Assembly: GCA_033763575.1 (NCBI GenBank)
Contig: JANRKF010000006.1
Location: 16,166-80,165, forward strand
Reading direction: 5' to 3'
DNA from: Alphaproteobacteria bacterium
Lineage (GTDB): Bacteria > Pseudomonadota > Alphaproteobacteria > Rickettsiales > SXRF01
DNA length: 64,000 bases
The notes beneath the pieces were generated by a model, which searched no databases, was not told where the DNA came from, and saw only the letters and a program-made list of their open reading frames with translations. Position 1 is the stretch's first letter, and every line of letters begins with the position of its first letter. The position numbers were made by a program, and so were the translations under genes. Below, piece by piece: positions 26,688-53,893 of this stretch.

Positions 26688-28664
26688 ATGAATAAACTAT
26701 TTTATACTACGCTTTTAAGCTCGACTATTTTATTCGGTGCAGTCCAGAGTGCGATGGCGGCCTCGGATGTTGATTCCGATGATTTGCTCAATATGTCGCT
26801 TGCTGAGCTTTCCAACGTGGAGGTGACCTCGGTATCCAAGAAAGCCGAAAAAGAAACCGAAGCCGCCGCTGCGATTTTCGTGATCACCCAGGAAGATATT
26901 CAGCGCTCCGGCGCCACCGCTATTCCCGATTTACTGCGCATGGCCCCCGGTATTACGGTGACACAGGCCGGTTCGCATGACTGGACGGTGACAGCGCGCG
27001 GCTCCAACGACCAGTTCTCCAACAAGCTACTGGTGCTGATGGACGGCCGGACGATTTATTCACCGCTTTTCTCCGGCGTGATCTGGGACGTGCAGGACAC
27101 GATGCTCGAAGACATCGACCGCATTGAGGTGATTCGCGGGCCGGGCGCGACGCTCTGGGGCGCGAACGCGGTGAACGGCGTAATCAATATCATCACTAAA
27201 AACGCAAAAGATACGCAGGGCGGCTTGGCCGTGGTCAGCGCAGGTAATCAGGTGAAGGGTATTGGTTCGGCGCGTTATGGCCTGAAGGTTGGCGAAGATA
27301 GCTATGTGCGGATGTATGCCAAGCAAAAAGAATATAATTCAGAAGACCTGACTTCTGGCGCTACGGCCAATGATAACTGGAAGCGCAGTCAGGCGGGATT
27401 CAGGGGTGATTTGAGTGTTGGCGATGGAGACAAGCTCACGGTTCAGGGCGATATTTATGCCAATGATGAAGACGCCAATTATACAATCCCCGATCTAACT
27501 GCGGCTGGATTTATCAGCCATCCGGAAGGCATCAAGGCGGCGGGTGGAAACGTTCTGACGCGTTGGGAGCGCAAGCACAGCGAGGAATCGCAAACGACTG
27601 TGCAGATGTATTTTGATAATACCAGCTATAAAACCAGCTTCTTTAATGACCTGACCAACACCGGCGATATTGATGTTCAAAACGTATGGACTGGGTGGGG
27701 CGGCCAGGAAATCGTTTGGGGTGCCGGCTATCGCCTGGTCAGCAGCGAAAACGACCCGCAATCAGCGCAATACTCCCTGACGCCGAAACATCGCAACGAC
27801 AATTTATTCAATGCATTCGTTCAGGACAAGATTACGCTGATTCCAGAGGATTTATTCCTGACGCTTGGTACGAAGGTTGAGCATAATGATTATACGGGTG
27901 TTGAGGTGCAGCCGAGTGTTCGCATGTCCTGGCTACCTGCGGAAAATCAGGCGGTTTGGGGTTCTGTTTCACGCGCGGTGCACACGCCGTATCGTTATAC
28001 GGATGATGCTGTTCAGGCGGGCGGCATTGCAATATTGCCTGGCCCTACTCCGGTCTATATTCTTACGGCTCCCAACAAAAGTTTAAAATCCGAAGAACTC
28101 ATTGCTTATGAGCTGGGTTACCGCATTCAGCCGACTAAGGCGCTCTCATTTGACCTCGCTACATTTTACAATGAGTATGATGAGCTATTTTTTAGCAATA
28201 TAGGCACACCGACGACGTTTGTTCCGGCTGTGATTGATAACACCGGCTCAGGCACCTCCATGGGCTTTGAGCTTTCCAGCAAATGGAACGTTTCCAATCA
28301 GTGGCAGTTGGCTGGCGCTTACAGTTACATCAATGAAGTGTTTGATAAAAAGACGGCGCTTGCCCCTAGCTTTGTTGGAAAAACCCCGACGCATCAATTT
28401 AATGTCCGCTCTAGCTATGTGTTCATGCCGGGGGTGGAGATGAACAATGCCCTGTATTATGTGGACGACTTAAATGGCGTGGGGATTAAAGGATATTACC
28501 GCTTTGATACGAGCCTTGCCTATCGTGTGACGGATGACATTGAGGTGAGTATCGTGGGCCAAAACCTGTTCCGCAACAGCCACCAGGAGTTCAGCCCCTT
28601 CGCCTATCGGGCTGCTACGGAAATTGGCCGAAGCATCTACGGCAGCCTTACGGCTAGATTCTAG
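26688..28664 (+). CDS. TonB-dependent outer-membrane receptor
   Basis: 658 aa with a signal peptide, a plug domain (LSNVEVTSVSKK.E...EAAAAIFVITQEDIQRSGATAIPDLLRMAPGI, IEVIRGPGATLWGANAVNGVINIITK), a beta-barrel and a terminal aromatic (..SLTARF). Confidence 0.9.
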   Translation: MNKLFYTTLLSSTILFGAVQSAMAASDVDSDDLLNMSLAELSNVEVTSVSKKAEKETEAAAAIFVITQEDIQRSGATAIPDLLRMAPGITVTQAGSHDWTVTARGSNDQFSNKLLVLMDGRTIYSPLFSGVIWDVQDTMLEDIDRIEVIRGPGATLWGANAVNGVINIITKNAKDTQGGLAVVSAGNQVKGIGSARYGLKVGEDSYVRMYAKQKEYNSEDLTSGATANDNWKRSQAGFRGDLSVGDGDKLTVQGDIYANDEDANYTIPDLTAAGFISHPEGIKAAGGNVLTRWERKHSEESQTTVQMYFDNTSYKTSFFNDLTNTGDIDVQNVWTGWGGQEIVWGAGYRLVSSENDPQSAQYSLTPKHRNDNLFNAFVQDKITLIPEDLFLTLGTKVEHNDYTGVEVQPSVRMSWLPAENQAVWGSVSRAVHTPYRYTDDAVQAGGIAILPGPTPVYILTAPNKSLKSEELIAYELGYRIQPTKALSFDLATFYNEYDELFFSNIGTPTTFVPAVIDNTGSGTSMGFELSSKWNVSNQWQLAGAYSYINEVFDKKTALAPSFVGKTPTHQFNVRSSYVFMPGVEMNNALYYVDDLNGVGIKGYYRFDTSLAYRVTDDIEVSIVGQNLFRNSHQEFSPFAYRAATEIGRSIYGSLTARF

Positions 28665-29710
28665 CCCCTTTGGCGATGGTTGAGCAGAGATCGCAGCCCT
28701 GAGCAGTAATTCTTCAAAATGGTGGCGTGATAAGGGTGGTTCTTCGGCAAAATCGTAAGTAGATGGCGGTGAGCGGCTTCCATATTGTGATAAGGAATTT
28801 GTGGAAACATGTGATGCAGCGCATGGTAGCGCAACCCCACGGGAAAAAATAATGTATTGAATAGTGTTGGGGGAAGTGTGGTGGAATCGATAATTTGCTG
28901 TTTATGGCTGGTTTGAGTAAAATTGCTGATATATCGATGGCTCATGATGACGCGGTAGTAGTTAATGACACTAGTGAGGTAAATTGCAGCGCACCATACC
29001 CCCATCAGCGTGATGGGTAATACGCCTGTGTAGAGAAGCACCGCTGTGGCCAGGGTATAAACGGCGCACCCTGCATCCTGCAGATACCATTCTTTTTTTT
29101 CTGCATCCGTCGGAAGAGGTCGGACATATTTCAGGTTCAGAGCAAGCGTGGACATATAGCGGAATACGAAAGTTCGCCCATTGCTGCCTATAAATGGCAG
29201 CAGAAACGGAATAATTCCCCAGCGTATGATTAAAAACAGCGGCAAGAAAAGCGAGACGACGAAGGGAGAAAACACCAAGATATAGAAAGGGCCGCGATGC
29301 CCCAGATTATCATACTCCGCATCTTCCATGGTGCCATAAGTTCTTGGCAGATGATGGTAGAGATGGGTGTTGTAATTATACAGTGGGACTTTGTGCAGGA
29401 AGCCATGAAACAGATTATACATCATCCCCGTCCACCCAAGTTTTTTATTCAGATGATAAATTTCATGCATAAAAATGGTCATGCGGAATAGCGCTAGCGA
29501 GGCAATGATGATAAGGACAAATTGTATAAGGGAACCCGTTTCTTCCATGGCGGCCAATACCAGGCATACATTTCCAATAAGAAACGTGATTAGAAAGTCG
29601 ATAAAATAAAATATTTTATTGGGCTGAAGATAGGGCTGCATTTCAGGAAGAAGTTTGGCAAGATCAAGTTTTTCAGAAGCCGTATCGTTCAAAAATAATT
29701 CACTGTACAT
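28661..29710 (-). CDS. membrane fatty-acid desaturase family protein
   Basis: 349 aa with three His boxes (HEIYH, HLYHH, HALHH) and TM helices. It is AT-richer than the core genes. Confidence 0.8.
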   Translation of the reverse strand: MYSELFLNDTASEKLDLAKLLPEMQPYLQPNKIFYFIDFLITFLIGNVCLVLAAMEETGSLIQFVLIIIASLALFRMTIFMHEIYHLNKKLGWTGMMYNLFHGFLHKVPLYNYNTHLYHHLPRTYGTMEDAEYDNLGHRGPFYILVFSPFVVSLFLPLFLIIRWGIIPFLLPFIGSNGRTFVFRYMSTLALNLKYVRPLPTDAEKKEWYLQDAGCAVYTLATAVLLYTGVLPITLMGVWCAAIYLTSVINYYRVIMSHRYISNFTQTSHKQQIIDSTTLPPTLFNTLFFPVGLRYHALHHMFPQIPYHNMEAAHRHLLTILPKNHPYHATILKNYCSGLRSLLNHRQRG

Positions 29711-29834
29711 GCTAATAGACCTTGTTTCACTGTGGTTTCTACATTAGAATTTCTTCTGTTTTATTGCAACAGTTATGAGCATTAACTCAGACCACGCCAT
29801 CCATTTATCGCTTCCTCCCTAATTGGCTCAGCTG

Positions 29835-30806
29835 ATGGAAAAAGAAGAATACCTAGAAATTAAGAAGCAGCTCTCGTTTGAGAAGCCTGTGATTCTGACG
29901 TTGGTCACTATGGCTGTGCAGCTTTCGCTGTTGGCTCTTGCCATCGCATTGCTATTGCAAGGAACAGCCTTGACGTATCTTCTGTCGCAGTTGTTATTTG
30001 CGTTGTATTTTTTTCATGCGTTTGCCATGCTGCATGAAGCTGGCCACGGCAATCTTCACAAGAAACGCTTGGTGAATTGGGTTGTCGGACATTTCTTCAG
30101 TGTTTTTTGTTTCATCCCCTTTTTTTCATGGCAGCATATGCATCAGGGGCACCATGTTTATGCCGGCAGCATTAATAAAGACCCCGGCTCCAGGACGCTG
30201 CGAAAGATTCGCCAGCTCGGGAAAGTTCCAAAGCTTTACCAAATTGGCTGGAAACTCTGGGTTCCGATGCCCGCCATAGCGCAGCATGTGATGCTTTGGT
30301 TTTACCCCTTGCGGATATGGAGGGAGGAGCCGGAAAACAAGAGGACACTCTACCAAAGCTTTTTTTCAGTGTGTTTTTTGGTGCTGGCGTATCTGTTGCT
30401 ATTCCAGCTTTTTCCTGAAGTGGTAACGGCTCAGAATTTTCTTCCTGCTATCTTGCTGTATTTCGTGCTGACAGAGATTATTAACGCTCCACATCATGTG
30501 GGTATGCCACATTTTTATTCCACGCCGGAAAAGGACAGACTCAGGCTTTGGGAGCAGAACCTGCCCACAAGAAGCTGCCATTATTACGGTGTCTTATCGG
30601 AAATTGTGACGCTAAATTTCAGCCTGCATACCGAGCATCATTTTTTCCCCACGCTTCCGTGGTACCGCTTAAAGAAAGCGCGCGATCTTATCAAGCCAAG
30701 GCTGGGCAAGTCCTATAACGAGGTAGGAGATTTTTCCTGGAACTGGAGAACTCGTAAAGTTGCTGCAGGCAAGGTTGTTTTATCAGATGATGCGTTATTG
30801 GGCTAA
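29835..30806 (+). CDS. membrane fatty-acid desaturase family protein
   Basis: His boxes HEAGHGNLH, HQGHHVY and HTEHHFFP. I prefer the ATG at 29835 to the TTG at 29823. Confidence 0.8.
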   Translation: MEKEEYLEIKKQLSFEKPVILTLVTMAVQLSLLALAIALLLQGTALTYLLSQLLFALYFFHAFAMLHEAGHGNLHKKRLVNWVVGHFFSVFCFIPFFSWQHMHQGHHVYAGSINKDPGSRTLRKIRQLGKVPKLYQIGWKLWVPMPAIAQHVMLWFYPLRIWREEPENKRTLYQSFFSVCFLVLAYLLLFQLFPEVVTAQNFLPAILLYFVLTEIINAPHHVGMPHFYSTPEKDRLRLWEQNLPTRSCHYYGVLSEIVTLNFSLHTEHHFFPTLPWYRLKKARDLIKPRLGKSYNEVGDFSWNWRTRKVAAGKVVLSDDALLG

Positions 30807-30817
30807 CGTCAAAGCGC

Positions 30818-31540
30818 CTACTTTATCAGCTCAAGCTTTCTTTCTTTAGGTGTATGAACTTTGGGATGAATATTCCCACAAACATCACTTAAGTCCGACA
30901 TTACGAGATAAGCTTTCTCCTCAAAGTTCGGAATCGGCGGCACTATAATTTCATCGCAAATACGGGTGTGGGCCGCTCCAAAGCTGTTGGCGATGCGTCG
31001 CCAGTTGCGGGCCAGTGCCGCAGTCGTGCGCACAAATATATAGTGGGTATCTGCGCCGATTACTTTCTCAAACATAATTTTGCATAAGCCATGCATAATT
31101 TCCTGCTGGCGATGCTCCTCAAGGATGGCGAATTTAGAAATCACCCCGTGGCGCTCTTTATCAAGCGGAAGGTTATGGAAGGCTTCTCTAAGCTTGAAAT
31201 CTTCCGTTTCCATTGGCAGGAGGAAGCTCTCATCTCCCTCACGTACGGTCAGGCGGCAGGCACCGATGAGAAGCTTGCCGCGGCGGGCTACCAATATCTC
31301 GCTGATTTTATCATGGTTGTCGGCGCCGCCGCTACCATCACTGTTCATGACATCGCGGCCAAACATCTGGTCGCGCAGGCGGTAATATTGGTGGAGTAGC
31401 GCTTTATCGTCCGTGAATTCAAAAACGACCGGCTCAGGTTGGGGGGCTGGTCTGCCGAAACGCCTGATGAGCGCTTCTTGTGCGCTCTCAAGAAAGCTTT
31501 TTGTTTTTGGGGCCTCAACGGCATCGGTTGGCTTCGTCAT
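30818..31540 (-). CDS. GNAT-fold N-acyltransferase (OlsB / N-acyl amino acid synthase / LuxI-like)
   Basis: 240 aa with the pattern YYRLRDQMFG....D..HD..SEILVAR.G.LIGACRL and later ISKFAILEEHR. This resembles PF13444-type acyl-ACP-dependent N-acyltransferases. Confidence 0.55.
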   Translation of the reverse strand: MTKPTDAVEAPKTKSFLESAQEALIRRFGRPAPQPEPVVFEFTDDKALLHQYYRLRDQMFGRDVMNSDGSGGADNHDKISEILVARRGKLLIGACRLTVREGDESFLLPMETEDFKLREAFHNLPLDKERHGVISKFAILEEHRQQEIMHGLCKIMFEKVIGADTHYIFVRTTAALARNWRRIANSFGAAHTRICDEIIVPPIPNFEEKAYLVMSDLSDVCGNIHPKVHTPKERKLELIK

Positions 31541-31854
31541 ATAGTTAACTTTCAGTTAATGACATTCTCAATGGTTAACCTTATATTAGGTATTTTTGCA
31601 AAAATCAATAGGTATTTTTTTCCTAGATAGCACATAATTCGCATCTTTGCAACAGGATTATGCAAAGATCATTATCCTTCTATTTGCCTGTATTCCTTAA
31701 TAAAACAGCAATGTTTTGCCGCTATCCTGACGCTTGTAAGACTATCAAAAGGCTTGGAAATACGTGCATGCATAAAACACCGTACAATAATATATTTAGT
31801 AATTTCAGATGCTTGTTGCGGTGCTATCCGCCCTCTCGTGGTGTGGTGTGACCC

Positions 31855-32400
31855 ATGTATATATACCGTCAATTTAAAATTATTGTAATTTTTTCGTGTC
31901 TCTTCGGTTTCGTGGCGGCGCCTGCCTATGCGGCTCCCACACCGGATCAGATCAAAGCGGTGATGATCCGCAAATTCGTCGAATTCATTCGCTGGCCCGA
32001 GGCATCCGCACCGCAAAAGGAAATGCTGGTCAAAATTTGTGTGTATGGCGATTCGGCGATGTCGGGCATGAACGCGGTGTTCTCCAAAACCTCTTCCGCT
32101 AACGCCATTCAATACAGCCTGAGCAATATTTCGCAGCTCGATAATGTGGCGGGCGCCTGCCATGTGGTGTTTATCTCGGCGTCCAGGCAAGACCAGCTCT
32201 CGTCCATACTTGCGGTGCTGCGTTCCAAGCCGGTGCTTACGGTGAGCGATGTCAATAATTTTGCCGAGCGGGGCGGGATGATCGGTTTCCATATCATCGA
32301 CGGGAAAATACGTTACAACATCAATAATAAGGCGTTTGAGGCAGCGCAGCTCAAAGTCGATGCGCAACTGCTTGAAATCGCCAACAAGGTGGTGGAGTAG
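31855..32400 (+). CDS. YfiR-like periplasmic protein (DUF4154)
   Basis: 181 aa with a signal peptide (..APAYA), then IKAVMIRKFVEFIRWP, ICVYGD, CHVVFIS, PVLTVSD...F.ERGGMIGF and R.NIN. These are typical of the YfiR family. Confidence 0.75.
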   Translation: MYIYRQFKIIVIFSCLFGFVAAPAYAAPTPDQIKAVMIRKFVEFIRWPEASAPQKEMLVKICVYGDSAMSGMNAVFSKTSSANAIQYSLSNISQLDNVAGACHVVFISASRQDQLSSILAVLRSKPVLTVSDVNNFAERGGMIGFHIIDGKIRYNINNKAFEAAQLKVDAQLLEIANKVVE

Positions 32401-46796: not shown

Positions 46797-48932
46797 ATGT
46801 TTAATATCACCAAAAAATCAATCGAATGGGCGGGTAAAACCTTGACGCTGGAAACCGGGCGCATTGCGCGTCAGGCCGACGGTGCGGTACTCGCCACCTA
46901 TGGTAATACGTCGGTGCTGTGTACCGTGGTCGGTGCAAAAGCGGCGAAGCCGGATGTGGATTTCTTCCCGCTCACCGTGCATTACCAGGAAAAAGCATTC
47001 GCAGCCGGCAAAATCCCCGGCGGTTTTTTCAAGCGCGAAGGCAAGCCGAGCGAGAAGGAAGTGCTCACTTCCCGCCTGATCGACCGGCCGATTCGCCCGC
47101 TCTTTCCGGATGGCTTCTATAACGAAGTGCAGGTGGTGTGCACCCTGCTTTCGCACGATCTTGAAAATGATGCCGATATTGTCGCCCTGGTTGGCGCGTC
47201 GGCGGCGCTTACCCTTTCCGGCATCCCGTTCATGGGGCCGATCGGTGCGGCGCGTGTGGGCTATATCGATGGCCAGTATGTCATCAACCCGATGAAGTCC
47301 GAACTCGAAGGCAGCGCGCTCGATCTCGTCGTTGCCGCGACCGCCCGCTCGGTGATGATGGTGGAATCGGAAGCGAAAGAACTTTCGGAAGAAGTGATGC
47401 TGGGCGCGGTAGTAGCCGGTCACAAAGCCATGCAGCCGGTCATCGCGATGATTATCGAACTGGCGGAACAAGCTGCCAAGGATCCGTGGGACTTCCAATA
47501 CAGCGTTAACGATGAGCTGATGAACCGCGTGATGTTCCTTGCGGAAGCAGGGCTGGTCGAGGCTTACAAGCTCACGGTGAAACAGGAGCGCTCGAACAAG
47601 CTCGATGAAGTGAAGAAACACGCGAAACATACGCTGGTTGAAGAAGGTTTCGATGAGAAAACCGTCGGCAATTACCTGAAGAAAATCGAGCAGGACATTG
47701 TGCGCGGCGAGCTGGTGAAAACCAAAAAACGTATCGATGGCCGTGGCCCGGAAAATATCCGCCAAATTGATTGCCAGGTCGGCGTGCTGCCGATGGTGCA
47801 CGGTTCGGCCCTGTTCACCCGCGGTGAAACGCAGGCGATCGTGGTCGCCACGCTCGGCACCGGACAGGATGAGCAGCGTATCGATGCCATCGACGGCGAA
47901 TACACCGAAAACTTCATGCTTCACTATAACTTCCCGCCATACTCGGTTGGTGAAACAGGCAGAATGTCTGGTCCCGGCCGCCGCGAAATCGGCCACGGCA
48001 AGCTGGCATGGCGCGCTATTCACCCGATGCTGCCGGGCAAGGAAGAGTTCCCCTACACGCTGCGTTGCGTATCGGAAATCACCGAATCCAACGGCTCGTC
48101 CTCGATGGCGACTGTGTGCGGCGGGTCGCTTGCGATGATGGATGCGGGCGTGCCGCTGAAACGTCCGGTGGCGGGTATCGCCATGGGCCTCATCAAGGAA
48201 AAAGACAGCTTCGTGGTGCTTTCGGATATTCTGGGCGACGAAGATCACTTAGGCGATATGGATTTCAAAGTGGCCGGTACCGACGAAGGTATCACCGCGC
48301 TGCAAATGGACATTAAGATCGACGGCATCACCGAAGAAATCATGCAGATTGCCCTGAAACAGGCGCATGCCGGGCGCAAGCACATCCTCGGTGAAATGAA
48401 CAAAGCGATGACCGCGCCGCGTGAATCGGTCGGCGCCACCGCGCCGCGTATCACCACGCTGCAGATTCCGAAGGAAAAAATCCGCGATGTGATCGGTTCC
48501 GGCGGTAAAGTGATTCGCGAAATCTGCGAAGTCACCGGCGCTAAAATCGATATCGACGATGACGGGCTGGTGAAAATCGCTGCCGTCAATGCCGAAGCGG
48601 GCCAGAAAGCCTATGACTGGGTGTACGGTATCGTCGCCGAGGCGGAAGTGGGCAGAATCTACAGCGGCAAAGTGGCTAAAATCGTCGATTTCGGCGCATT
48701 CGTCACCTTCATGCCGAGCAAAGATGGGCTGGTGCATATCTCCGAGCTCGCCGATTACCGCGTCGCCAAAACCGATGATGTGGTGGCCGAAGGCCAGGAA
48801 GTGAAAGTCAAAGTACTGGAAATCGATGGCCGCAGCGGCAAGGTTCGCCTGTCCATGCGTGTGGTCGACCAGGAAACCGGCGAAGACATCTCCGAGAAGA
48901 TCGCTGCCAAGAAAAAAGAAGCGAACGGTTGA
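46797..48932 (+). CDS. pnp: polyribonucleotide nucleotidyltransferase (PNPase)
   Basis: 711 aa with two RNase PH domains, a KH domain ([10 protein letters not shown]) and an S1 domain ([18 protein letters not shown]). Confidence 0.97.
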
Positions 48933-49021
48933 TTTTTAAGCTGCGCCCGTGGCCGCTACTGCGGCCACATGGCGCGAAGCTCAGGGCTGGCTCATGCTAC
49001 TGCATTCGCATAACGTTATCG
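48933..49021. repeat. D-type dispersed repeat (copy D2) downstream of pnp
   Basis: TTTTAAGCTGCGCCCGTGGCCGCTACTGCGGCCACATGGCGCGAAGCTCAGGGCTGGCTCATGCTACTGCATTCGCATAACGTTATCG. Confidence 0.75.
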
Positions 49022-49080
49022 TTGAGACAATCCGTAGGATTAGCTCTGCTCAGTGAGGAAATCGCGGGGGCTTAAGTATA

Positions 49081-49115
49081 AAAAAAGGGGCACCGCGAGG
49101 CGCCCCTTATTTTTA
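49081..49115. terminator. bidirectional rho-independent terminator between pnp and the H1-like gene
   Basis: AAAAAA-GGGGCACC-GCGA-GGCGCCCC-TTATTTTT. Confidence 0.7.
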
Positions 49116-49150
49116 AGTCAATGGGAGTTTGACCTTTGTTTCCAATCCAA

Positions 49151-49342
49151 TTAGAGGCGGATCGGGGTAACTTTTTTAGCAGCTGAAGTTTTCAGCAGGC
49201 TGATGCCAACTTTTTTCTTCGCGGCTGGTTTTTTAGCAGCTGGTTTTTTAGCAGCTTTTTTCACTGTTTTTTTAACAGCTTTTTTAGCGGCTGGTTTTTT
49301 AGCAGCTTTTTTAGCAGCTGGTTTTTTTGCTTTCTTTAACAT
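49151..49342 (-). CDS. histone H1-like Lys/Ala-repeat basic protein
   Basis: MLKKAKKPAAKKAAKKPAAKKAVKKTVKKAAKKPAAKKPAAKKK.. The ATG at 49342 is preceded by GGAG. The DNA consists of tandem GCAGCTGGTTTTTTA-type units. Confidence 0.6.
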   Translation of the reverse strand: MLKKAKKPAAKKAAKKPAAKKAVKKTVKKAAKKPAAKKPAAKKKVGISLLKTSAAKKVTPIRL

Positions 49343-49712
49343 AGAGAACTCCATTTTGGTTAGATTGATACCCGTTCACACCGTGTTCCCGGGTAGCGAA
49401 TACAGTTTTCCGCCAAAAGTATAAATTTTCTGTTAACGCCAAAGGCAATATCAGGAAGTTTTGCAGCCTTAGTAAAACTATGCACAGCCATTCATTCCGG
49501 GTTCGTAATGAATTGATTCTTCATAAAACGGTCACTCACTCTTAATTATATCGTTACGTGCATGTTATGATTTTTTAAAAACCTGCTCTGAAATCGCTGG
49601 CAATAGCAAAAATATTTTTCTTATTTTTCATTCCGACTGTGATATAAAAAACACAATAGTGTTCATGATAATCATCCTGTAAAATAAAAAACGAACCTGG
49701 AAATCGTTTCTC

Positions 49713-50369
49713 ATGCAGCCCATTTCATTCCGCTTCCGGATTATTTTTGTTCTTACCTGCGTTGTATGTTTTGCTGTGGCGGAACGTGCGGATGCCGGCG
49801 TTTCCTATTTTGATATGAGTGAGGATATCAGCAGCAACTTAAAGCCGTTCCCGAAATGGACCAGCGTGATGAGCCGCTATCGCGGCCAGCAGAAAACTCC
49901 TGATAGCGAGTGCGGGAAGACGGCCTTCCATCCATGTGTGATACCGCAGTGGAAATCGCTGGTGGCGGGCCTGCGCGATGAATCGATGGAAAATAAACTT
50001 GAGGCGATCAACGACTGGGCGAACGCGCATCCTTATATTGTCGATCAACTGAATTGGGGCTTGAACGATTACTGGTCGACACCCTACGAGTTCATGGAAG
50101 TCAACGGCGATTGCGAGGATTACGCCATTGCCAAATATTATTCGCTGCGCGCTGCCGGTGTGCCGGAAGACCGCCTGCGCATCATGGTCGTGCAGGACCT
50201 GAACCTAGGCGGCATCATCCACGCCATCCTCGGCGTCTATGACGATGACAAGCTGTGGATTCTCGATAACCAGATCAAGCAGGTGGTCGATGCCTATAGT
50301 ATTTATCACTACCGTCCTATTTATGGCGCCAACGGACAGCATTGGTGGCGCTACTATCCCAAAAATTAG
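49713..50369 (+). CDS. periplasmic transglutaminase-like cysteine protease (BTLCP / LapG family)
   Basis: 218 aa with a signal peptide (..AERADA) and the Cys-His-Asp triad context (GDCEDYAIAKYYSL, GIIHAILGVY, WILDNQ) typical of PF06035. Confidence 0.8.
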   Translation: MQPISFRFRIIFVLTCVVCFAVAERADAGVSYFDMSEDISSNLKPFPKWTSVMSRYRGQQKTPDSECGKTAFHPCVIPQWKSLVAGLRDESMENKLEAINDWANAHPYIVDQLNWGLNDYWSTPYEFMEVNGDCEDYAIAKYYSLRAAGVPEDRLRIMVVQDLNLGGIIHAILGVYDDDKLWILDNQIKQVVDAYSIYHYRPIYGANGQHWWRYYPKN

Positions 50370-50431
50370 CTATGAAAACCGGCTGATATCACTATAATCG
50401 CCGCTTCTTATCGAATTCCCAACGACAACGC

Positions 50432-52585
50432 ATGCGAGGACCTATGGAACAGGATAATGATGCCGCAGCAGTAGAGGCTCAGCCTACGCTCTTTGTGCCG
50501 AAGTTTTACGGCATCGCGCTTCTGGTCGGCGCCATCGTGTTGCTGGGGCTGTGGCTGGTGACGCGTTATGTAGCGCTTGATGTGGCGCGTGACATGCGTA
50601 CCTGGCAGGAAAAACTGAACCTCATCGCCGAAAGCCGGGCGGCGGATGTCACGCGCTATGTCAGCGACCACTTCAAGGAATTGCATACGCTTTCGGATAA
50701 TCCGTCGCTGCAACTTTATCTCACCGAACTGCAGATGATGCCGGAGGCGACGCCGGGAAAACCCGCCGAGCCGCCCGCGCAGCTTGAATACCTGCGCAAC
50801 CTGCTGATTTTCACGGCCCAGCGCGGCGGCTATATGGCACCTGCGATGAGTGCTAATATTCCGGCCAATGTCGAGACCGATAATCAAAGCGGCCTCGCGG
50901 TGCTCAATAATAACAATGAAATGGTGGTGTCCACGGCGATTCCGCAATCGGTCAAAGACGAGATGACTGCGAATGTCGTGCAGGGCGCGGGGCTCGAAGA
51001 CCGCCTGATCGATTTGAAGAAAAGTGACGACGGCTCCTTATATATGGGCTTCGTCGTGCCGATCTTTTCCATTCAGGGCGAGCGCAACAAGGAATCGCAG
51101 GTCGGCACCATCGTCGCCATCCGTGCGGTGGATAAGGATTTCTTCAGCCTGCTCAAGCATCCCGGCGTGGTGGAGAATACGCTTGAAACGGTGCTGGTGC
51201 GGGCCGATGGCGGCAATATTGAATTCCTGACGCCGCTGCTCGATAAATCGCAGGCGCTCACCAAGACGATCGATAAAGACAGCCGCCGCTTTGTCGAAGC
51301 GCGGTTGCTGCAGACGGTGGGCAACTTCGTTTCTGACATGCGGGATTACGGCAAAAAGCAGGTGCTGGCCACCTCGCGCTCGATTGCCGGGACGCCGTGG
51401 ACGATGATCGTCAAGGTCGAAAAAGACGAGGCGCTGAAAAGCAGCTCGCAGAACCGCAATAATATGATCGCGTTTTTCTTCCTCATCATTGCCATCATTG
51501 CGCTGCTGATCGTGGCGATCTGGTGGCATGCCAGCTCGAAGCGCTCGCTGATGCTATCGACCCATTACCGTTATCTCGCCACCCAGGCGCAGGCGCAGGA
51601 ACGGCTGCTCAGGCTGGTATCGGATAACCAGCCGGAGGCGATTTTCATCCTCGATGCGGAGCATCGCTACCAGTTCGCCAACCGCCGGGAAGCCGAGCAT
51701 GCGGACATGCAGTTGGAATCGGTGGCGGGCAAGCATGTGCAGGACGTGCGCGGCACGGCCCGCGCCCGCCACATCATCCAGCAATGCGAAGAGGCGCTCG
51801 CAGGGCAGGAGATCACCTATCATACCTTCCAGCATGAAGAAGGCGGCGAACAACGCAGCTACCGCAGCGCGTACGTGCCGGTCGCGCATATTCCGCTGGT
51901 GCATCTGCCGGTGCCGTCGCCGGGCGTGCTGGTGGTCGAGCAGGACATCACCGAGGTGGTGGGCGAGCGCGAAAAACGCCTGCAGATCAGCAACGACCTG
52001 ATCGGCACGCTGGTGACGCTGGTCGACCGGCGCGATCCGTTCGCGGCCAACCACTCGCTGATGGTGTCGGGCCTTGCCCGGAATATCGCCGAGGGCATGG
52101 AGCTGGACGAGGCGATGGTGGATACGGCAACCACCGCCGCCAGCCTGATGAATATCGGAAAAATCGTGGTGTCGCCGCAACTGCTCACCAAGACCGGCAC
52201 GCTTACCGAAGAGGAGCGCCTCATCATCCGCGATTCGATGCTCGATGCGGCGGAGCTGGTGAAGCCGATCCATTTCGAAGGGCCGGTCTACGAAACGCTC
52301 TGCCAGTGGCAGGAGAAATGGGACGGCAGCGGCACGCTGGGCCTGAAAGGCGAGGCGATCCTGGTGTCGGCGCGCATCCTGGCGGTGGCCAATACCTTCG
52401 TCGGCATGATCAGCCCGCGCAGCTGGCGCAACGCACTCAGCCATGAAGACGCCATCAAATTCCTGATGGGCAATTGCGGCACGCTGTTCGACCGCCGGGC
52501 GGTGGTGGCGCTGGTGCATTTCATCGAGAACCAGCAGGGCAAGGCATGGCTTTCATCGATGACCGGTGGCCGTGACGCCGCCTAA
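50432..52585 (+). CDS. membrane sensor protein: 2 TM, Cache-like periplasmic domain, PAS, C-terminal degenerate HD-GYP domain
   Basis: 717 aa. The HD-GYP-homologous region reads ANHSLMV..SLMNIGKIVV..LTEEE..CQWQEKWDGSGTLGLKGEAI..ARILAVANTFVGMISPRSW. HD is replaced by MN, HHE by WQE, GYP by GTL, and the DxxD by NTFV. Confidence 0.7.
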   Translation: MRGPMEQDNDAAAVEAQPTLFVPKFYGIALLVGAIVLLGLWLVTRYVALDVARDMRTWQEKLNLIAESRAADVTRYVSDHFKELHTLSDNPSLQLYLTELQMMPEATPGKPAEPPAQLEYLRNLLIFTAQRGGYMAPAMSANIPANVETDNQSGLAVLNNNNEMVVSTAIPQSVKDEMTANVVQGAGLEDRLIDLKKSDDGSLYMGFVVPIFSIQGERNKESQVGTIVAIRAVDKDFFSLLKHPGVVENTLETVLVRADGGNIEFLTPLLDKSQALTKTIDKDSRRFVEARLLQTVGNFVSDMRDYGKKQVLATSRSIAGTPWTMIVKVEKDEALKSSSQNRNNMIAFFFLIIAIIALLIVAIWWHASSKRSLMLSTHYRYLATQAQAQERLLRLVSDNQPEAIFILDAEHRYQFANRREAEHADMQLESVAGKHVQDVRGTARARHIIQQCEEALAGQEITYHTFQHEEGGEQRSYRSAYVPVAHIPLVHLPVPSPGVLVVEQDITEVVGEREKRLQISNDLIGTLVTLVDRRDPFAANHSLMVSGLARNIAEGMELDEAMVDTATTAASLMNIGKIVVSPQLLTKTGTLTEEERLIIRDSMLDAAELVKPIHFEGPVYETLCQWQEKWDGSGTLGLKGEAILVSARILAVANTFVGMISPRSWRNALSHEDAIKFLMGNCGTLFDRRAVVALVHFIENQQGKAWLSSMTGGRDAA

Positions 52586-52612
52586 TCTCTATCTAACAAA
52601 GGTAATCCCACA

Positions 52613-53893
52613 ATGAGTAAAAAAATATCTGCGACCAAAAAATCCGGTATAAAAAAACAATCCACTGCCACCAAAGCCCTGATCGCCAAGGGCCGCAAAT
52701 ATTACACGCTCGCCTATAAACCGCGTGAGACCATCATCGCCAGGGGCAAGGGTGCCAGCGTCTGGGATTTGGACGGCAACCAGCATATCGATCTCGGCGC
52801 AGGCATCGCGGTCACCGCGCTCGGCCATCATAACGACGCGCTCAAAAAAGCCCTGATGAAACAGGCCGGAAAAATCTGGCACACCAGCAATATCTTTTTC
52901 ACCGAGCCGCCGATTTTATTGGCCGAAGCGTTGGTGAAATCCTCGAAATTTGCGCGTCGCGTATTCCTCACCAATTCCGGCGGCGAAGCCAACGAAGCGG
53001 CGATCAAGCTCGCCCGCAAATACGCCGCCGACAAAGGCAAGCCGCCCGAAAAACGTAATATCATCACCTTCACCGGCTCGTTCCATGGCCGCACGCTCGC
53101 CACCGTCACCGCCACCGCCCAGCCGAAATATCAGGCCGGTTTCGAGCCGCTGCCGGGAGGGTTTATTTATGTGCCGTTCAACGACATCGAGGCGCTCAAA
53201 AAAGTGATGGACGATTCGGTGTGCGCGGTGATGCTGGAAGTGGTGCAGGGCGAGGGCGGCATCACCCCTGTGAAACCCGGATTTTTAAAAGCGGTGCAGG
53301 ATCTTTGCCACAAGCATGACGCGCTTTTGATGCTCGACCAGGTGCAGTGCGGCATGATGCGTACCGGGCATTTATTCTCACACTTCGCGGAAAAAGGCGT
53401 AACCCCGGATGTGGTGACGCTCGCGAAAGCGCTCGGCGGCGGCATGCCGATCGGCGCCTGCCTCATCGGTGCGCGTGCGGAAAACACCTTCCAGTTCGGC
53501 TCGCACGGCTCCACCTTCGGCGGCAATCCGCTGGCCTGCGCGGTGGCAAGCGAAGTGCTGAAAATCCTGCAATCGAAGAAATTGCAAAGCAATGTCAAAG
53601 ACCGCAGCAAGGAAATTTTTGCGGGTCTCAATGCCATCAATAAGAAACTCACACTCTTCAAGGAAGTGCGTGGGCGCGGGTTGATGATTGGCGCAGAATT
53701 GCTGCCCGCTTATCATGGGAAGGCCGGGGATATCGCCGAACTTGCGCGCGCGCATGGCGTGCTGATTTTGCAGGCGGGGCCGAACGTGTTGCGCTTCCTG
53801 CCGCCACTCACCATCACCAAAAAAGAACTGGCCGAGGGAATGAAACGGCTGGAAAAAGCGCTCGCTGCGTTCCAGAAAACAGTGAAAGCATAA
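52613..53893 (+). CDS. astC: class III aminotransferase (acetylornithine/succinylornithine aminotransferase)
   Basis: 426 aa with G.G.ALGH, NSGGEANEAAIKLARKY, LDQVQCGMMRTG and TLAKALGGG (the PLP lysine context). It sits directly upstream of astA. Confidence 0.8.
   Translation: MSKKISATKKSGIKKQSTATKALIAKGRKYYTLAYKPRETIIARGKGASVWDLDGNQHIDLGAGIAVTALGHHNDALKKALMKQAGKIWHTSNIFFTEPPILLAEALVKSSKFARRVFLTNSGGEANEAAIKLARKYAADKGKPPEKRNIITFTGSFHGRTLATVTATAQPKYQAGFEPLPGGFIYVPFNDIEALKKVMDDSVCAVMLEVVQGEGGITPVKPGFLKAVQDLCHKHDALLMLDQVQCGMMRTGHLFSHFAEKGVTPDVVTLAKALGGGMPIGACLIGARAENTFQFGSHGSTFGGNPLACAVASEVLKILQSKKLQSNVKDRSKEIFAGLNAINKKLTLFKEVRGRGLMIGAELLPAYHGKAGDIAELARAHGVLILQAGPNVLRFLPPLTITKKELAEGMKRLEKALAAFQKTVKA

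What the first reader, a model, noticed from the sequence alone, without database searches (positions are those of the whole stretch)
49713..52585. LapG-type periplasmic protease paired with a Cache-PAS membrane protein whose HD-GYP domain has lost its metal ligands
**Seen in the sequence**
- A secreted BTLCP protease with an intact Cys/His/Asp context (GDCEDY, IIHAIL, ILDNQ) is followed 62 nt later, on the same strand, by a 717-aa protein.
- That protein has 2 TM helices, a roughly 300-aa periplasmic Cache-like domain, a PAS domain and an HD-GYP-homologous domain.
- Aligned by eye to RpfG-type HD-GYP domains: LHDIGK becomes LMNIGK, HHERWDGSGYP becomes WQEKWDGSGTL, and ADVFDAL becomes ANTFVGM. 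Most His/Asp metal ligands are therefore gone, while the fold signature is kept.

**Established knowledge**
- BTLCP/LapG proteases are controlled by LapD. LapD is an inner-membrane receptor that uses degenerate GGDEF-EAL domains to sense c-di-GMP and sequesters LapG in the periplasm.
- The usual gene order is lapG then lapD.

**Inference**
- This pair may be an analogous inside-out switch in which a catalytically dead HD-GYP domain replaces the degenerate EAL as the nucleotide sensor and a Cache domain replaces the LapD periplasmic domain.
- I am not aware of such a pairing being characterised.
- No adhesin substrate lies in the window.
Basis: partly seen in the sequence, partly recalled or inferred. 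Interest (0 to 1): 0.72.

Follow-up and report, generated by a model that had tools for sequence, protein, structure and literature searches.

The report
DvhG/DvhD-type protease and c-di-GMP receptor pair

Summary
A secreted BTLCP protease gene (49713-50369) lies 62 nt upstream, on the same strand, of a 717-aa protein (50432-52585). That protein has two TM helices, a periplasmic dCache domain, a PAS domain and a degenerate HD-GYP domain.

The proposed mechanism, a LapD-like inside-out switch built on a dead HD-GYP, has already been demonstrated. It is DvhD/DvhG of Desulfovibrio vulgaris (PNAS 2024; Nat Commun 2026).

- **Cytoplasmic half:** its best solved-structure match is DvhD PAS/HD-GYP (9rc0, E 1.6e-37). 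Active HD-GYP enzymes score about 1e-13.
- **Periplasmic domain:** its AlphaFold model matches the DvhD periplasmic domain best (9rc2).
- **Binding site:** the metal ligands are replaced in essentially all 120 homologues. The DvhD residues shown to matter at the main c-di-GMP site (R650, Y652/R653, M646) are kept.
- **Pairing:** the protease and receptor are adjacent in 70 of 76 evaluable alphaproteobacterial genomes.
- **Context in relatives:** more distant members of the same subfamily sit beside T1SS genes and RTX adhesins carrying a conserved F-x-TAAG motif.

Three things differ here. The pair belongs to a distinct "MN" subfamily. The GYP tyrosine is deleted. In this clade the pair sits beside pnp, with no T1SS or adhesin nearby.

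Verdict: new member of a known kind, with modest interest.

The parts
49713..50369 (+). BTLCP (LapG/DvhG-like) periplasmic cysteine protease, 218 aa. It has a signal-peptide-like N-terminus (residues 1-28), the triad C134/H170/D185, and the Ca-site flank D133/E135.
   Evidence: The D-C-E motif corresponds to DvhG D316/C317/E318, which is required for activity.
50370..50443 (+). Short intergenic region: 62 nt to the first ATG, 74 nt to the probable start at 50444. GAGGA lies at 50436-50440. No terminator-like site was found, which fits co-transcription.
   Evidence: The NCBI model is 713 aa.
50432..52585 (+). DvhD-like inner-membrane receptor, 717 aa by the first ATG and 713 aa by the probable start.
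50510..50572 (+). Transmembrane helix 1, about residues 27-47.
   Evidence: Hydropathy analysis.
50573..51466 (+). Periplasmic dCache domain, residues 48-345. Its long N-terminal helix is broken into alpha1 and alpha1'. The alpha1' segment (residues 91-102, PSLQLYLTELQM) and residues 121-130 are the best-conserved periplasmic blocks.
   Evidence: AlphaFold2 pLDDT 87.8. The Foldseek top hit is 9rc2, the DvhD periplasmic domain, followed by many dCache domains.
51467..51535 (+). Transmembrane helix 2, about residues 346-368.
   Evidence: Hydropathy analysis.
51593..51961 (+). Cytoplasmic PAS domain, about residues 388-510.
   Evidence: Pfam PAS_4 at residues 398-485. It aligns to the DvhD PAS domain in 9rc0.
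51962..52561 (+). Helical stalk plus degenerate HD-GYP domain, residues 511-710. Metal ligands are replaced (M573 N574, W626 Q627, N654). Nucleotide-contact residues are kept (R534, F537, L591, R596, M659, R663, W665/R666). The GYP Tyr is deleted.
   Evidence: Pfam HD_5 at residues 527-688.

Best explanation
The two genes encode a DvhG/DvhD-type module, which is the HD-GYP-based counterpart of LapG/LapD.

**Shown here**
- The receptor has the DvhD architecture: TM, dCache, TM, PAS, stalk, HD-GYP.
- Every module matches DvhD best among solved structures.
- Its HD-GYP domain has lost the metal ligands needed for hydrolysis but keeps most DvhD c-di-GMP contact residues under strict conservation.
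- The protease keeps an intact Cys-His-Asp triad, the calcium-site residues and an export signal.
- The two genes are a conserved neighbouring pair.

**Inferred from the DvhD/DvhG experiments**
- At high c-di-GMP the dimeric pseudo-enzyme binds the nucleotide.
- The stalk helices then splay, and the change passes through the PAS domain and TM helices to the dCache domain.
- The dCache domain restrains the protease, probably through its conserved alpha1' helix.
- At low c-di-GMP the protease is free to cut the N-terminal retention module of a T1SS-secreted RTX adhesin at a [T/A/P]AAG site, releasing the adhesin from the cell surface.

**Unknown**
- The substrate in this organism, which must be encoded outside the 64-kb window.
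For: **1. Cytoplasmic half.** The best PDB sequence match is DvhD PAS/HD-GYP, 9rc0 at E 1.6e-37 and 9rbz at 6.9e-34. Active HD-GYP enzymes score about 1e-13.
- Identity to DvhD is 33% over PAS plus HD-GYP.
- Identity is 39% in the HD-GYP domain, against 28% to PmGH.
- In a neighbour-joining tree DvhD is sister to the window's subfamily in 71 of 100 bootstraps.

**2. Periplasmic domain.** The model has pLDDT 87.8. Its top Foldseek PDB hit is 9rc2, 'DvhD, periplasmic domain' (E 5.8e-9, TM 0.60/0.70), ahead of about 70 other dCache hits.

**3. Pseudo-enzyme under selection.** Across 120 homologues:
- HD becomes MN (119/120 and 120/120).
- The first His of the HH pair becomes W in 120/120.
- The catalytic Asp becomes N in 120/120.

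**4. DvhD c-di-GMP contacts are conserved.**
- R650 is R in 120/120.
- Y652 is W in 120/120.
- R653 corresponds to R666, which is invariant in the 71-sequence alignment.
- M646 is M in 120/120.
- L577 is L in 117/120.
- K582 is K or R in all.
- K520 is R in 120/120.
- Y523 is F or Y in 119/120.

**5. Protease.** It matches PF06035. C/H/D and the D-C-E motif are intact. D-C-E equals the DvhG residues required for activity.

**6. Pairing.** A BTLCP gene is adjacent in 70 of 76 evaluable genomes.

**7. Functional context in the same 'MN' subfamily.**
- T1SS ABC, MFP and TolC genes lie next to the pair in Sneathiella and Oceanibacterium.
- Giant RTX adhesins lie directly downstream in 9 loci.
- Four adjacent adhesins have an N-terminal FecR-like module followed by a conserved F-x-TAAG motif. 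This fits the published LapG/DvhG cleavage consensus [T/A/P]AAG.

**8. Experimental basis for the mechanism.**
Against: - **No nearby substrate or secretion system.** No T1SS or adhesin lies in the 64-kb window, or within 10 kb of the pair in any of the 36 closest genome loci.
- **Altered binding site.**
  - The GYP tyrosine (DvhD Y621, which contacts a phosphodiester) is deleted in this clade.
  - E668, which reads the guanine amino group, is N or C here and Q or N in the family.
  - The bridging-site residues P567 and R569 are S581 and Q583 in the window protein.
  - Affinity, stoichiometry or nucleotide preference may therefore differ.
- **Incomplete pairing.** Five close relatives keep the receptor without an adjacent BTLCP.
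- **Untested here.** Nucleotide binding, the protease-dCache contact and the substrate were not tested. No diguanylate cyclase is visible in the window.
- **Open question in DvhD itself.** How the receptor restrains the protease is still only a model.
Confidence: 0.7

Rival explanations
1. The pair is an orphaned module with a different job. The dCache domain senses a periplasmic ligand (outside-in or coincidence signalling), or the protease processes a periplasmic or outer-membrane protein other than a T1SS adhesin. In this clade the link to adhesin release has been lost.
For: - In the window's clade the pair sits downstream of infB-rbfA-truB-rpsO-pnp.
- There is no T1SS or adhesin within 10 kb in 36 loci, or within the 64-kb window.
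- Five relatives have the receptor without an adjacent protease.
- dCache domains are usually ligand sensors, and whether DvhD's dCache binds a ligand is unresolved.
Against: - Lap-type adhesins are often encoded away from their regulators; the paper notes second adhesins elsewhere.
- Sister lineages of the same subfamily are embedded in T1SS and RTX-adhesin loci with TAAG sites.
- The protease active site and the nucleotide pocket are both strictly conserved.
Confidence: 0.15
2. The receptor works as described but senses a nucleotide other than c-di-GMP, for example 3'3'-cGAMP or pGpG.
For: - DvhD itself binds 3'3'-cGAMP with a Kd of about 0.5 uM.
- The guanine-reading E668 is replaced and the GYP Tyr is deleted in this family.
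Against: - The residues shown by mutation to matter for c-di-GMP binding at the canonical site (R650, Y652/R653, M646) are invariant or conservatively replaced.
- Q or N at the E668 position can still accept a hydrogen bond from a guanine amino group (inference).
Confidence: 0.1
3. The HD-GYP domain is an active phosphodiesterase, so the protein is an ordinary sensor-PDE that merely sits next to a protease gene.
For: - Pfam HD_5 and HD matches are significant.
- The first His of the HD fold (H541) is retained in 120/120 homologues.
Against: - The HD dyad, the HH pair and the downstream Asp are all replaced by non-ligand residues (M, N, W, Q, N), and these replacements are fixed across the family.
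- DvhD, with equivalent losses, shows no hydrolysis with any metal tested.
- The gene pairing is conserved.
Confidence: 0.03
4. It is a canonical LapG/LapD system.
For: - The protease aligns with the LapG structures 4fgo and 4u65_E.
- The gene order, protease then receptor, resembles lapG-lapD.
Against: - The receptor has no HAMP, GGDEF, EAL or LapD_MoxY_N domain.
- The protease scores 87 bits against the 320-bit LapG equivalog cut-off.
Confidence: 0.01

Closest known systems
DvhD/DvhG (DVU1020/DVU1019) of Desulfovibrio (Nitratidesulfovibrio) vulgaris Hildenborough; PDB 9rc0, 9rbz, 9rc2; PMC10990149 and PMC13090378
   Same: - The receptor architecture is the same: TM, dCache, TM, PAS, stalk, degenerate HD-GYP.
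- The metal ligands are lost.
- Most c-di-GMP contact residues are conserved.
- A BTLCP with the C-H-D triad and the D-C-E calcium site is adjacent.
- Relatives of the window pair sit next to T1SS genes and RTX adhesins with a [T/A/P]AAG site.
   Different: - Identity to DvhD is only 32-39%.
- The HD motif is MN rather than SQ.
- The GYP Tyr is deleted, giving DG[ST]G-[PT].
- E668 and the bridging-site residues P567 and R569 are not conserved in the window protein.
- The protease has a signal peptide rather than the TM anchor plus 180-residue linker of D. vulgaris DvhG. The paper says most DvhG orthologues also have signal peptides.
- No T1SS or adhesin lies nearby.
- The host is an uncultured alphaproteobacterium.
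LapD/LapG of Pseudomonas fluorescens and Legionella pneumophila (PDB 4u65, 4fgo)
   Same: - The logic is the same: a periplasmic BTLCP protease controlled by an inner-membrane receptor that uses a degenerate c-di-GMP-metabolising domain.
- The protease catalytic and calcium residues are conserved.
   Different: - LapD has a LapD_MoxY_N periplasmic domain, HAMP, GGDEF and EAL. None of these is present here.
- According to the DvhD papers, the LapD Trp and LapG pocket interaction is not expected in this family.
Active HD-GYP phosphodiesterases (PmGH 4mcw/4mdz, V-cGAP3 5z7c, PA4781 4r8z, RpfG)
   Same: - The HD-GYP fold is shared.
- The overall nucleotide pocket is similar.
   Different: - The catalytic metal ligands (HD, HH, D) are replaced here.
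- Sequence similarity is far weaker, about E 1e-13 against 1e-37 for DvhD.
Second ('SQ-type') dCache-PAS-HD-GYP receptor plus BTLCP pair inside the T1SS operon of Sneathiella and Oceanibacterium (L066 407-3185; L053 742-3569)
   Same: - The domain architecture is the same.
- It is paired with a BTLCP.
- The HD-GYP domain is degenerate.
   Different: - Identity to the window receptor is only 23-28%.
- It keeps GYP and the first Asp of the downstream D-x-x-D motif (reading ADILIAR), and has SQ as in DvhD.
- Its BTLCP has Ser in place of the catalytic Cys in Sneathiella.

Membership tests
DvhD-type receptor (dCache-PAS-degenerate HD-GYP) | Two TM helices flanking a periplasmic dCache domain of about 300 aa | tested here: met
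   - Hydropathy analysis.
- AlphaFold2 model with pLDDT 87.8.
- The top Foldseek hit is 9rc2, the DvhD periplasmic domain, followed by many dCache domains.
- Several homologues carry PF02743.
DvhD-type receptor (dCache-PAS-degenerate HD-GYP) | Cytoplasmic PAS domain, helical stalk and HD-GYP fold | tested here: met
   - Pfam PAS_4 and HD_5 matches.
- A continuous alignment of residues 388-710 to DvhD chain 9rc0, E 1.6e-37.
DvhD-type receptor (dCache-PAS-degenerate HD-GYP) | Loss of the HD-GYP metal ligands (HD dyad, HH pair, downstream Asp) | tested here: met
   The window has MN, WQ and N, and these are fixed in 119-120 of 120 homologues.
DvhD-type receptor (dCache-PAS-degenerate HD-GYP) | Conservation of the c-di-GMP contact residues seen in the DvhD crystal structure | tested here: inconclusive
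   - Kept or conservatively replaced: R650, Y652 (W), R653, M646, L577, K582 (R), K520 (R), Y523 (F).
- Not kept: Y621 (deleted), E668 (N or C), P567 (S, with P shifted by one residue), R569 (Q).
- Sources.
DvhD-type receptor (dCache-PAS-degenerate HD-GYP) | [quoted passage not shown] | not testable with these tools
   This needs ITC, DSF and HPLC on purified protein, as was done for DvhD.
DvhD-type receptor (dCache-PAS-degenerate HD-GYP) | Encoded next to a BTLCP protease gene | tested here: met
   - In the window the protease gene is 62 nt upstream on the same strand.
- The two genes are adjacent in 70 of 76 evaluable genomes.
DvhD-type receptor (dCache-PAS-degenerate HD-GYP) | Locus also encodes a T1SS and a large adhesin with a retention module and a [T/A/P]AAG site | tested here: not met
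   - There is none in the 64-kb window or within 10 kb in the 36 closest loci.
- The feature is met in more distant members of the same subfamily.
- The rest of this genome could not be searched.
LapG/DvhG-type BTLCP protease | BTLCP fold (PF06035) | tested here: met
   - Pfam match at E 5.3e-17, 62.5 bits against a cut-off of 27.
- It aligns to the LapG structures 4fgo and 4u65_E.
LapG/DvhG-type BTLCP protease | Cys-His-Asp catalytic triad | tested here: met
   C134, H170 and D185 align with the LapG triad and are conserved among 89 family members.
LapG/DvhG-type BTLCP protease | Calcium-binding Asp and Glu flanking the catalytic Cys (DvhG D316/E318) | tested here: met
   The GDCEDY motif has D133 and E135.
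LapG/DvhG-type BTLCP protease | Exported to the periplasm | tested here: met
   - The N-terminus MQPISFRFRIIFVLTCVVCFAVAERADA has a basic n-region, a hydrophobic core and an A-x-A site.
- No dedicated signal-peptide predictor was available.
LapG/DvhG-type BTLCP protease | Reaches the NCBIfam LapG equivalog cut-off | tested here: not met
   NF045674 scores 87.1 bits against a cut-off of 320. It is LapG-like, not a LapG orthologue by that model.
LapG/DvhG-type BTLCP protease | Cleaves an adhesin at a di-alanine site | not testable with these tools
   No substrate has been identified in this genome.
Canonical LapD receptor | LapD_MoxY_N periplasmic domain, HAMP, and degenerate GGDEF and EAL domains | tested here: not met
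   None of these domains is found by Pfam or NCBIfam.
Active HD-GYP phosphodiesterase | Intact HD, HH and Asp metal ligands and the GYP motif | tested here: not met

The most novel reading that the evidence does not exclude
In this clade of uncultured Alphaproteobacteria, the 'MN-type' DvhD/DvhG pair has been uncoupled from the T1SS-adhesin locus and fixed beside the infB-pnp housekeeping cluster. It may have been re-used in one of two ways. It could control a different periplasmic or surface substrate. Alternatively, its remodelled pocket (GYP Tyr deleted, guanine-reading Glu replaced) could read a nucleotide other than c-di-GMP.
Probability: 0.15. Interest if true: 0.55.

Novelty: new member of a known kind. 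Interest (0 to 1): 0.3.

Why it matters
- **Reach of the design.** The HD-GYP-based replacement for LapD is not confined to sulfate reducers. A large alphaproteobacterial subfamily carries it: more than 200 homologues and 80 species-level genomes were found here.
- **Natural mutagenesis.** The subfamily's invariant residues map onto the experimentally defined DvhD main c-di-GMP site. They therefore show which contacts are essential (R650, Y652/R653, M646) and which are dispensable (the GYP Tyr, E668).
- **Test case.** The clade represented by the window has no linked T1SS or adhesin. It can show whether these modules always regulate adhesin release.
- **Limit.** The principle itself was published in 2024-2026, so this is not a discovery of principle.

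Tried and rejected
- **Riboswitch or regulatory RNA upstream.** The only Rfam hit was MicX at 21 bits against a gathering score of 75 (E 0.13), which I treat as chance.
- **Promoter and terminator scan of 48800-52800.** It found no more sites than the shuffles did. The only clear feature is a hairpin at 49085-49108 belonging to the small minus-strand gene.
- **Extending beyond the window.** I tried look-up of encoding contigs with the CheA ORF, an early ORF and P0001. None is on record, so the remaining 29 kb or so of the 93-kb contig could not be read.
- **Searching for the substrate.**
  - I built a profile of the adhesin N-terminal module from L039, L040, L042 and L062 and searched 5.8 billion proteins.
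  - It returned 371 hits. The named ones among the best 120 are mostly Rhodospirillales and Rhodospirillaceae.
  - None could be tied to the window's clade.
- **T1SS queries against the window.** tblastn with the Sneathiella ABC, MFP and TolC proteins and the adhesin N-terminus found nothing.
- **Diguanylate cyclase in the window.** A GG[DE]EF motif scan found none.
- **Complex prediction.** A protease-dCache complex model was not attempted. The structure tool takes single window sequences only, and a fusion without a paired alignment would be uninformative.
- **Rejected readings.** Active PDE and canonical LapD, as set out under the rival explanations.


Full report
**1. What is in the sequence**

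The window has two co-directional ORFs at exactly the stated coordinates. One is 49713-50369 (218 aa) and the other is 50432-52585 (717 aa), and they are 62 nt apart.

The receptor probably starts at the second ATG (50444). A GAGGA sequence lies just upstream of it, and it matches the 713-aa NCBI model MDX2072988.1, annotated 'MAG: HD domain-containing phosphohydrolase [Alphaproteobacteria bacterium]'.

The 218-aa protein:
- It matches Pfam PF06035 (BTLCP), E 5e-17.
- It aligns to the LapG crystal structures 4fgo and 4u65_E.
- C134, H170 and D185, and the D133-C-E135 motif, are intact.
- It has a signal-peptide-like N-terminus.
- It does not reach the NCBIfam LapG equivalog cut-off, scoring 87 bits against 320.

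The 717-aa protein:
- It has two hydrophobic segments, at about residues 18-52 and 341-370.
- It has a PAS_4 match at residues 398-485 and an HD_5 (HD-GYP type) match at residues 527-688.

- HD becomes M573 N574.
- HH becomes W626 Q627.
- The downstream Asp becomes N654.
- The GYP Tyr is missing.

**2. This pairing has already been characterised**

A full-text search for 'HD-GYP' plus 'LapG' found two papers from the O'Toole and Sondermann groups.

PNAS 2024 (PMC10990149) reports:
- DVU1020 (DvhD) of Desulfovibrio vulgaris is encoded next to the LapG-like protease DvhG.
- It is a membrane protein with a periplasmic domain, a PAS domain and a predicted-inactive HD-GYP domain.
- It rescues adhesin retention in a c-di-GMP-dependent way.
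- It binds c-di-GMP with a Kd of 322 nM.

Nat Commun 2026 (PMC13090378) reports:
- No hydrolysis with any metal tested.
- A stalk-splaying conformational change on nucleotide binding.

The published list of 78 DvhD homologues already contains Alphaproteobacteria: Pelagibius, Denitrobaculum, Kiloniella, Fodinicurvata, Oceanibacterium and Sneathiella.

**3. Is the window protein a DvhD relative?**

Cytoplasmic half:
- The best solved-structure match by sequence is DvhD, with 9rc0 at E 1.6e-37 over residues 388-710. Active HD-GYP enzymes score about 1e-13.
- Identity to DvhD is 33% over PAS plus HD-GYP.
- Identity is 39% in the HD-GYP domain, against 28% to PmGH.
- In a neighbour-joining tree of the HD-GYP domain rooted on PmGH, DvhD is sister to the window's subfamily in 71 of 100 bootstraps.

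Periplasmic half:
- An AlphaFold2 model of residues 48-345, built on 71 homologues, has pLDDT 87.8 and pTM 0.83.
- Its top Foldseek hit in the PDB is 9rc2, 'DvhD, periplasmic domain' (E 5.8e-9, TM 0.60/0.70). Dozens of dCache ligand-binding domains follow.
- The long N-terminal helix is broken into two parts (H2-41 and H44-55), as described for DvhD alpha1 and alpha1'.
- The alpha1' segment (residues 91-100) and residues 121-130 are the best-conserved periplasmic blocks across 84 subfamily members. The DvhD paper proposes alpha1' as the protease-binding surface. This agreement is suggestive only.

**4. The nucleotide pocket**

I derived the offset between PDB chain 9rc0 and DvhD numbering (+373) from the alignment, then mapped the published contact residues.

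| DvhD residue | Window residue | Family (120 homologues) |
|---|---|---|
| R650 | R663 | R in 120/120 |
| Y652 | W665 | W in 120/120 |
| R653 | R666 | invariant in the 71-sequence alignment |
| M646 | M659 | M in 120/120 |
| L577 | L591 | L in 117/120 |
| K582 | R596 | K or R in all |
| K520 | R534 | R in 120/120 |
| Y523 | F537 | F or Y in 119/120 |
| Y621 (GYP Tyr) | deleted | deleted in all 120 |
| E668 | N681 or C682, depending on the aligner | mostly Q or N |
| P567 (bridging site) | S581, with P at 582 | P in 96/120 |
| R569 (bridging site) | Q583 | mostly E |

Two conclusions follow:
- The domain is a pseudo-enzyme under strong purifying selection.
- The residues shown by mutagenesis to matter most at the canonical site are preserved, but the pocket is not identical to that of DvhD.

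**5. Conservation of the pair and genomic context**

A scan of one genome per bacterial species found 80 loci, all alphaproteobacterial. A BTLCP gene is adjacent in 70 of the 76 loci that have enough flanking sequence.

The window's clade:
- It comprises 36 loci at 42-69% receptor identity, labelled 'Rickettsiales bacterium' or 'Alphaproteobacteria bacterium' MAGs.
- The protease lies immediately upstream on the same strand, usually 40-170 nt away.
- The pair sits downstream of infB-rbfA-truB-rpsO-pnp in 22 of these loci.
- No T1SS gene lies within 10 kb in any of them.
- Five of them keep the receptor without an adjacent protease.

More distant members of the same subfamily (34-39% identity; Sneathiella, Oceanibacterium, Rhodospirillales):
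- The protease is divergently transcribed.
- T1SS ABC(C39-like), MFP and TolC genes lie directly alongside in 14 loci. Weaker ABC and MFP matches occur in 5 more.
- Giant RTX proteins (HemolysinCabind, Cadherin_4/5, Big_9, Laminin_G_3) lie directly downstream of the receptor in 9 loci.
- Four adjacent RTX adhesins (L039, L040, L042, L062) share an N-terminal FecR-like module followed by a conserved F-x-TAAG motif. This fits the LapG/DvhG cleavage consensus [T/A/P]AAG.

This ties the window's subfamily, not only D. vulgaris DvhD, to T1SS adhesin control.

**6. Most likely mechanism**

Shown here:
- Homology of all modules to DvhD and DvhG.
- A dead catalytic centre with a conserved binding pocket.
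- An intact protease.
- A conserved gene pair.
- Adhesin and T1SS linkage in sister lineages.

Inferred from the DvhD and LapD experiments:
- c-di-GMP binds the HD-GYP dimer.
- The stalk helices splay, and the signal passes through the PAS domain and TM helices to the dCache domain.
- The dCache domain restrains the protease.
- When c-di-GMP falls, the protease cuts the retention module of an RTX adhesin and the adhesin is released.

Unknown: the substrate in this organism. Nothing resembling a T1SS, an RTX adhesin or a diguanylate cyclase lies in the 64-kb window. I could not read the rest of the contig.

**7. Rivals**

- **Active phosphodiesterase.** This is effectively excluded by the fixed loss of metal ligands and by DvhD's lack of activity.
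- **Canonical LapD.** This is excluded by the domain content.
- **Still open, at low probability.** In this clade the module may have been uncoupled from adhesin control, or it may read another nucleotide. DvhD also binds 3'3'-cGAMP, and the GYP Tyr and E668 are changed here.

**8. Novelty and score**

The principle was published in 2024 and 2026, and alphaproteobacterial homologues were already listed.

What is new is incremental:
- The window's protein belongs to a large, distinct 'MN-type' subfamily. A second 'SQ-type' paralogue coexists with it in Sneathiella and Oceanibacterium.
- The GYP Tyr is deleted.
- In this uncultured clade the pair is fixed beside pnp with no secretion system nearby.

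I rate it a new member of a known kind, with interest 0.3.

Noticed in passing
L066 407-12070 (Sneathiella sp. HT1-7). The same layout occurs in L053, L060, L063-L065, L067, L069, L072, L073, L080, L081 and L083.: Two receptor-protease pairs flank one T1SS. An 'SQ-type' dCache-PAS-HD-GYP receptor and a BTLCP lie in the ABC-MFP operon. A divergent 'MN-type' pair lies beyond TolC. In 12 Sneathiella-type loci the operon-internal BTLCP has Ser instead of the catalytic Cys (GDSEDF or GGSRDF). In L053 the corresponding position reads GDPLDL. It could be a pseudo-protease or a Ser-nucleophile variant.
   Followed up: partly
L039 5426-8149, L040 12149-15598, L042 14660-16315 and L062 12123-14954, all on the minus strand: RTX adhesins encoded convergently, directly after the MN-type receptor. 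They share an N-terminal FecR-like (PF04773) module followed by a conserved F-x-TAAG motif, which is a candidate BTLCP cleavage site. The module family has 371 or more members, mostly Rhodospirillales among those with names.
   Followed up: partly
window 49151-49354 (-): A 67-aa Lys/Ala-rich ORF with KKPAA-type repeats, resembling histone H1-like nucleoid proteins, lies between pnp and the protease gene. A strong hairpin sits at 49085-49108, just past its 3' end.
   Followed up: no
L003 and L004, 16184-22157: In one relative, a ShlB/TpsB-type two-partner-secretion transporter and a very large ORF (called as 3197 aa, running off the locus) lie 4-6 kb downstream of the pair. This is probably coincidental, because BTLCP substrates are T1SS adhesins.
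   Followed up: no
L006, L007, L011, L032 and L033: Close relatives keep the receptor but have no BTLCP within the available flanks. Neighbouring genes are tgt, aroA and hisG-type housekeeping genes. The protease may be encoded elsewhere or lost.
   Followed up: partly
P0181: One metagenomic protein, 449 aa, carries both PF04773 (FecR-like adhesin N-terminal module) and PF06035 (BTLCP). It is either a fusion or a mis-called gene boundary.
   Followed up: no
window 28001-32000: GC content drops to 0.46-0.47 against 0.54-0.60 elsewhere. The region begins at the 3' end of a TonB-dependent receptor gene (26688-28664) and includes a fatty-acid desaturase gene (28661-29710). It may be a horizontally acquired segment.
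   Followed up: no
window 50432 and 50444: The receptor ORF has two in-frame ATGs 12 nt apart. Only the second has a GAGGA Shine-Dalgarno-like sequence upstream, and it matches the NCBI 713-aa model.
   Followed up: yes
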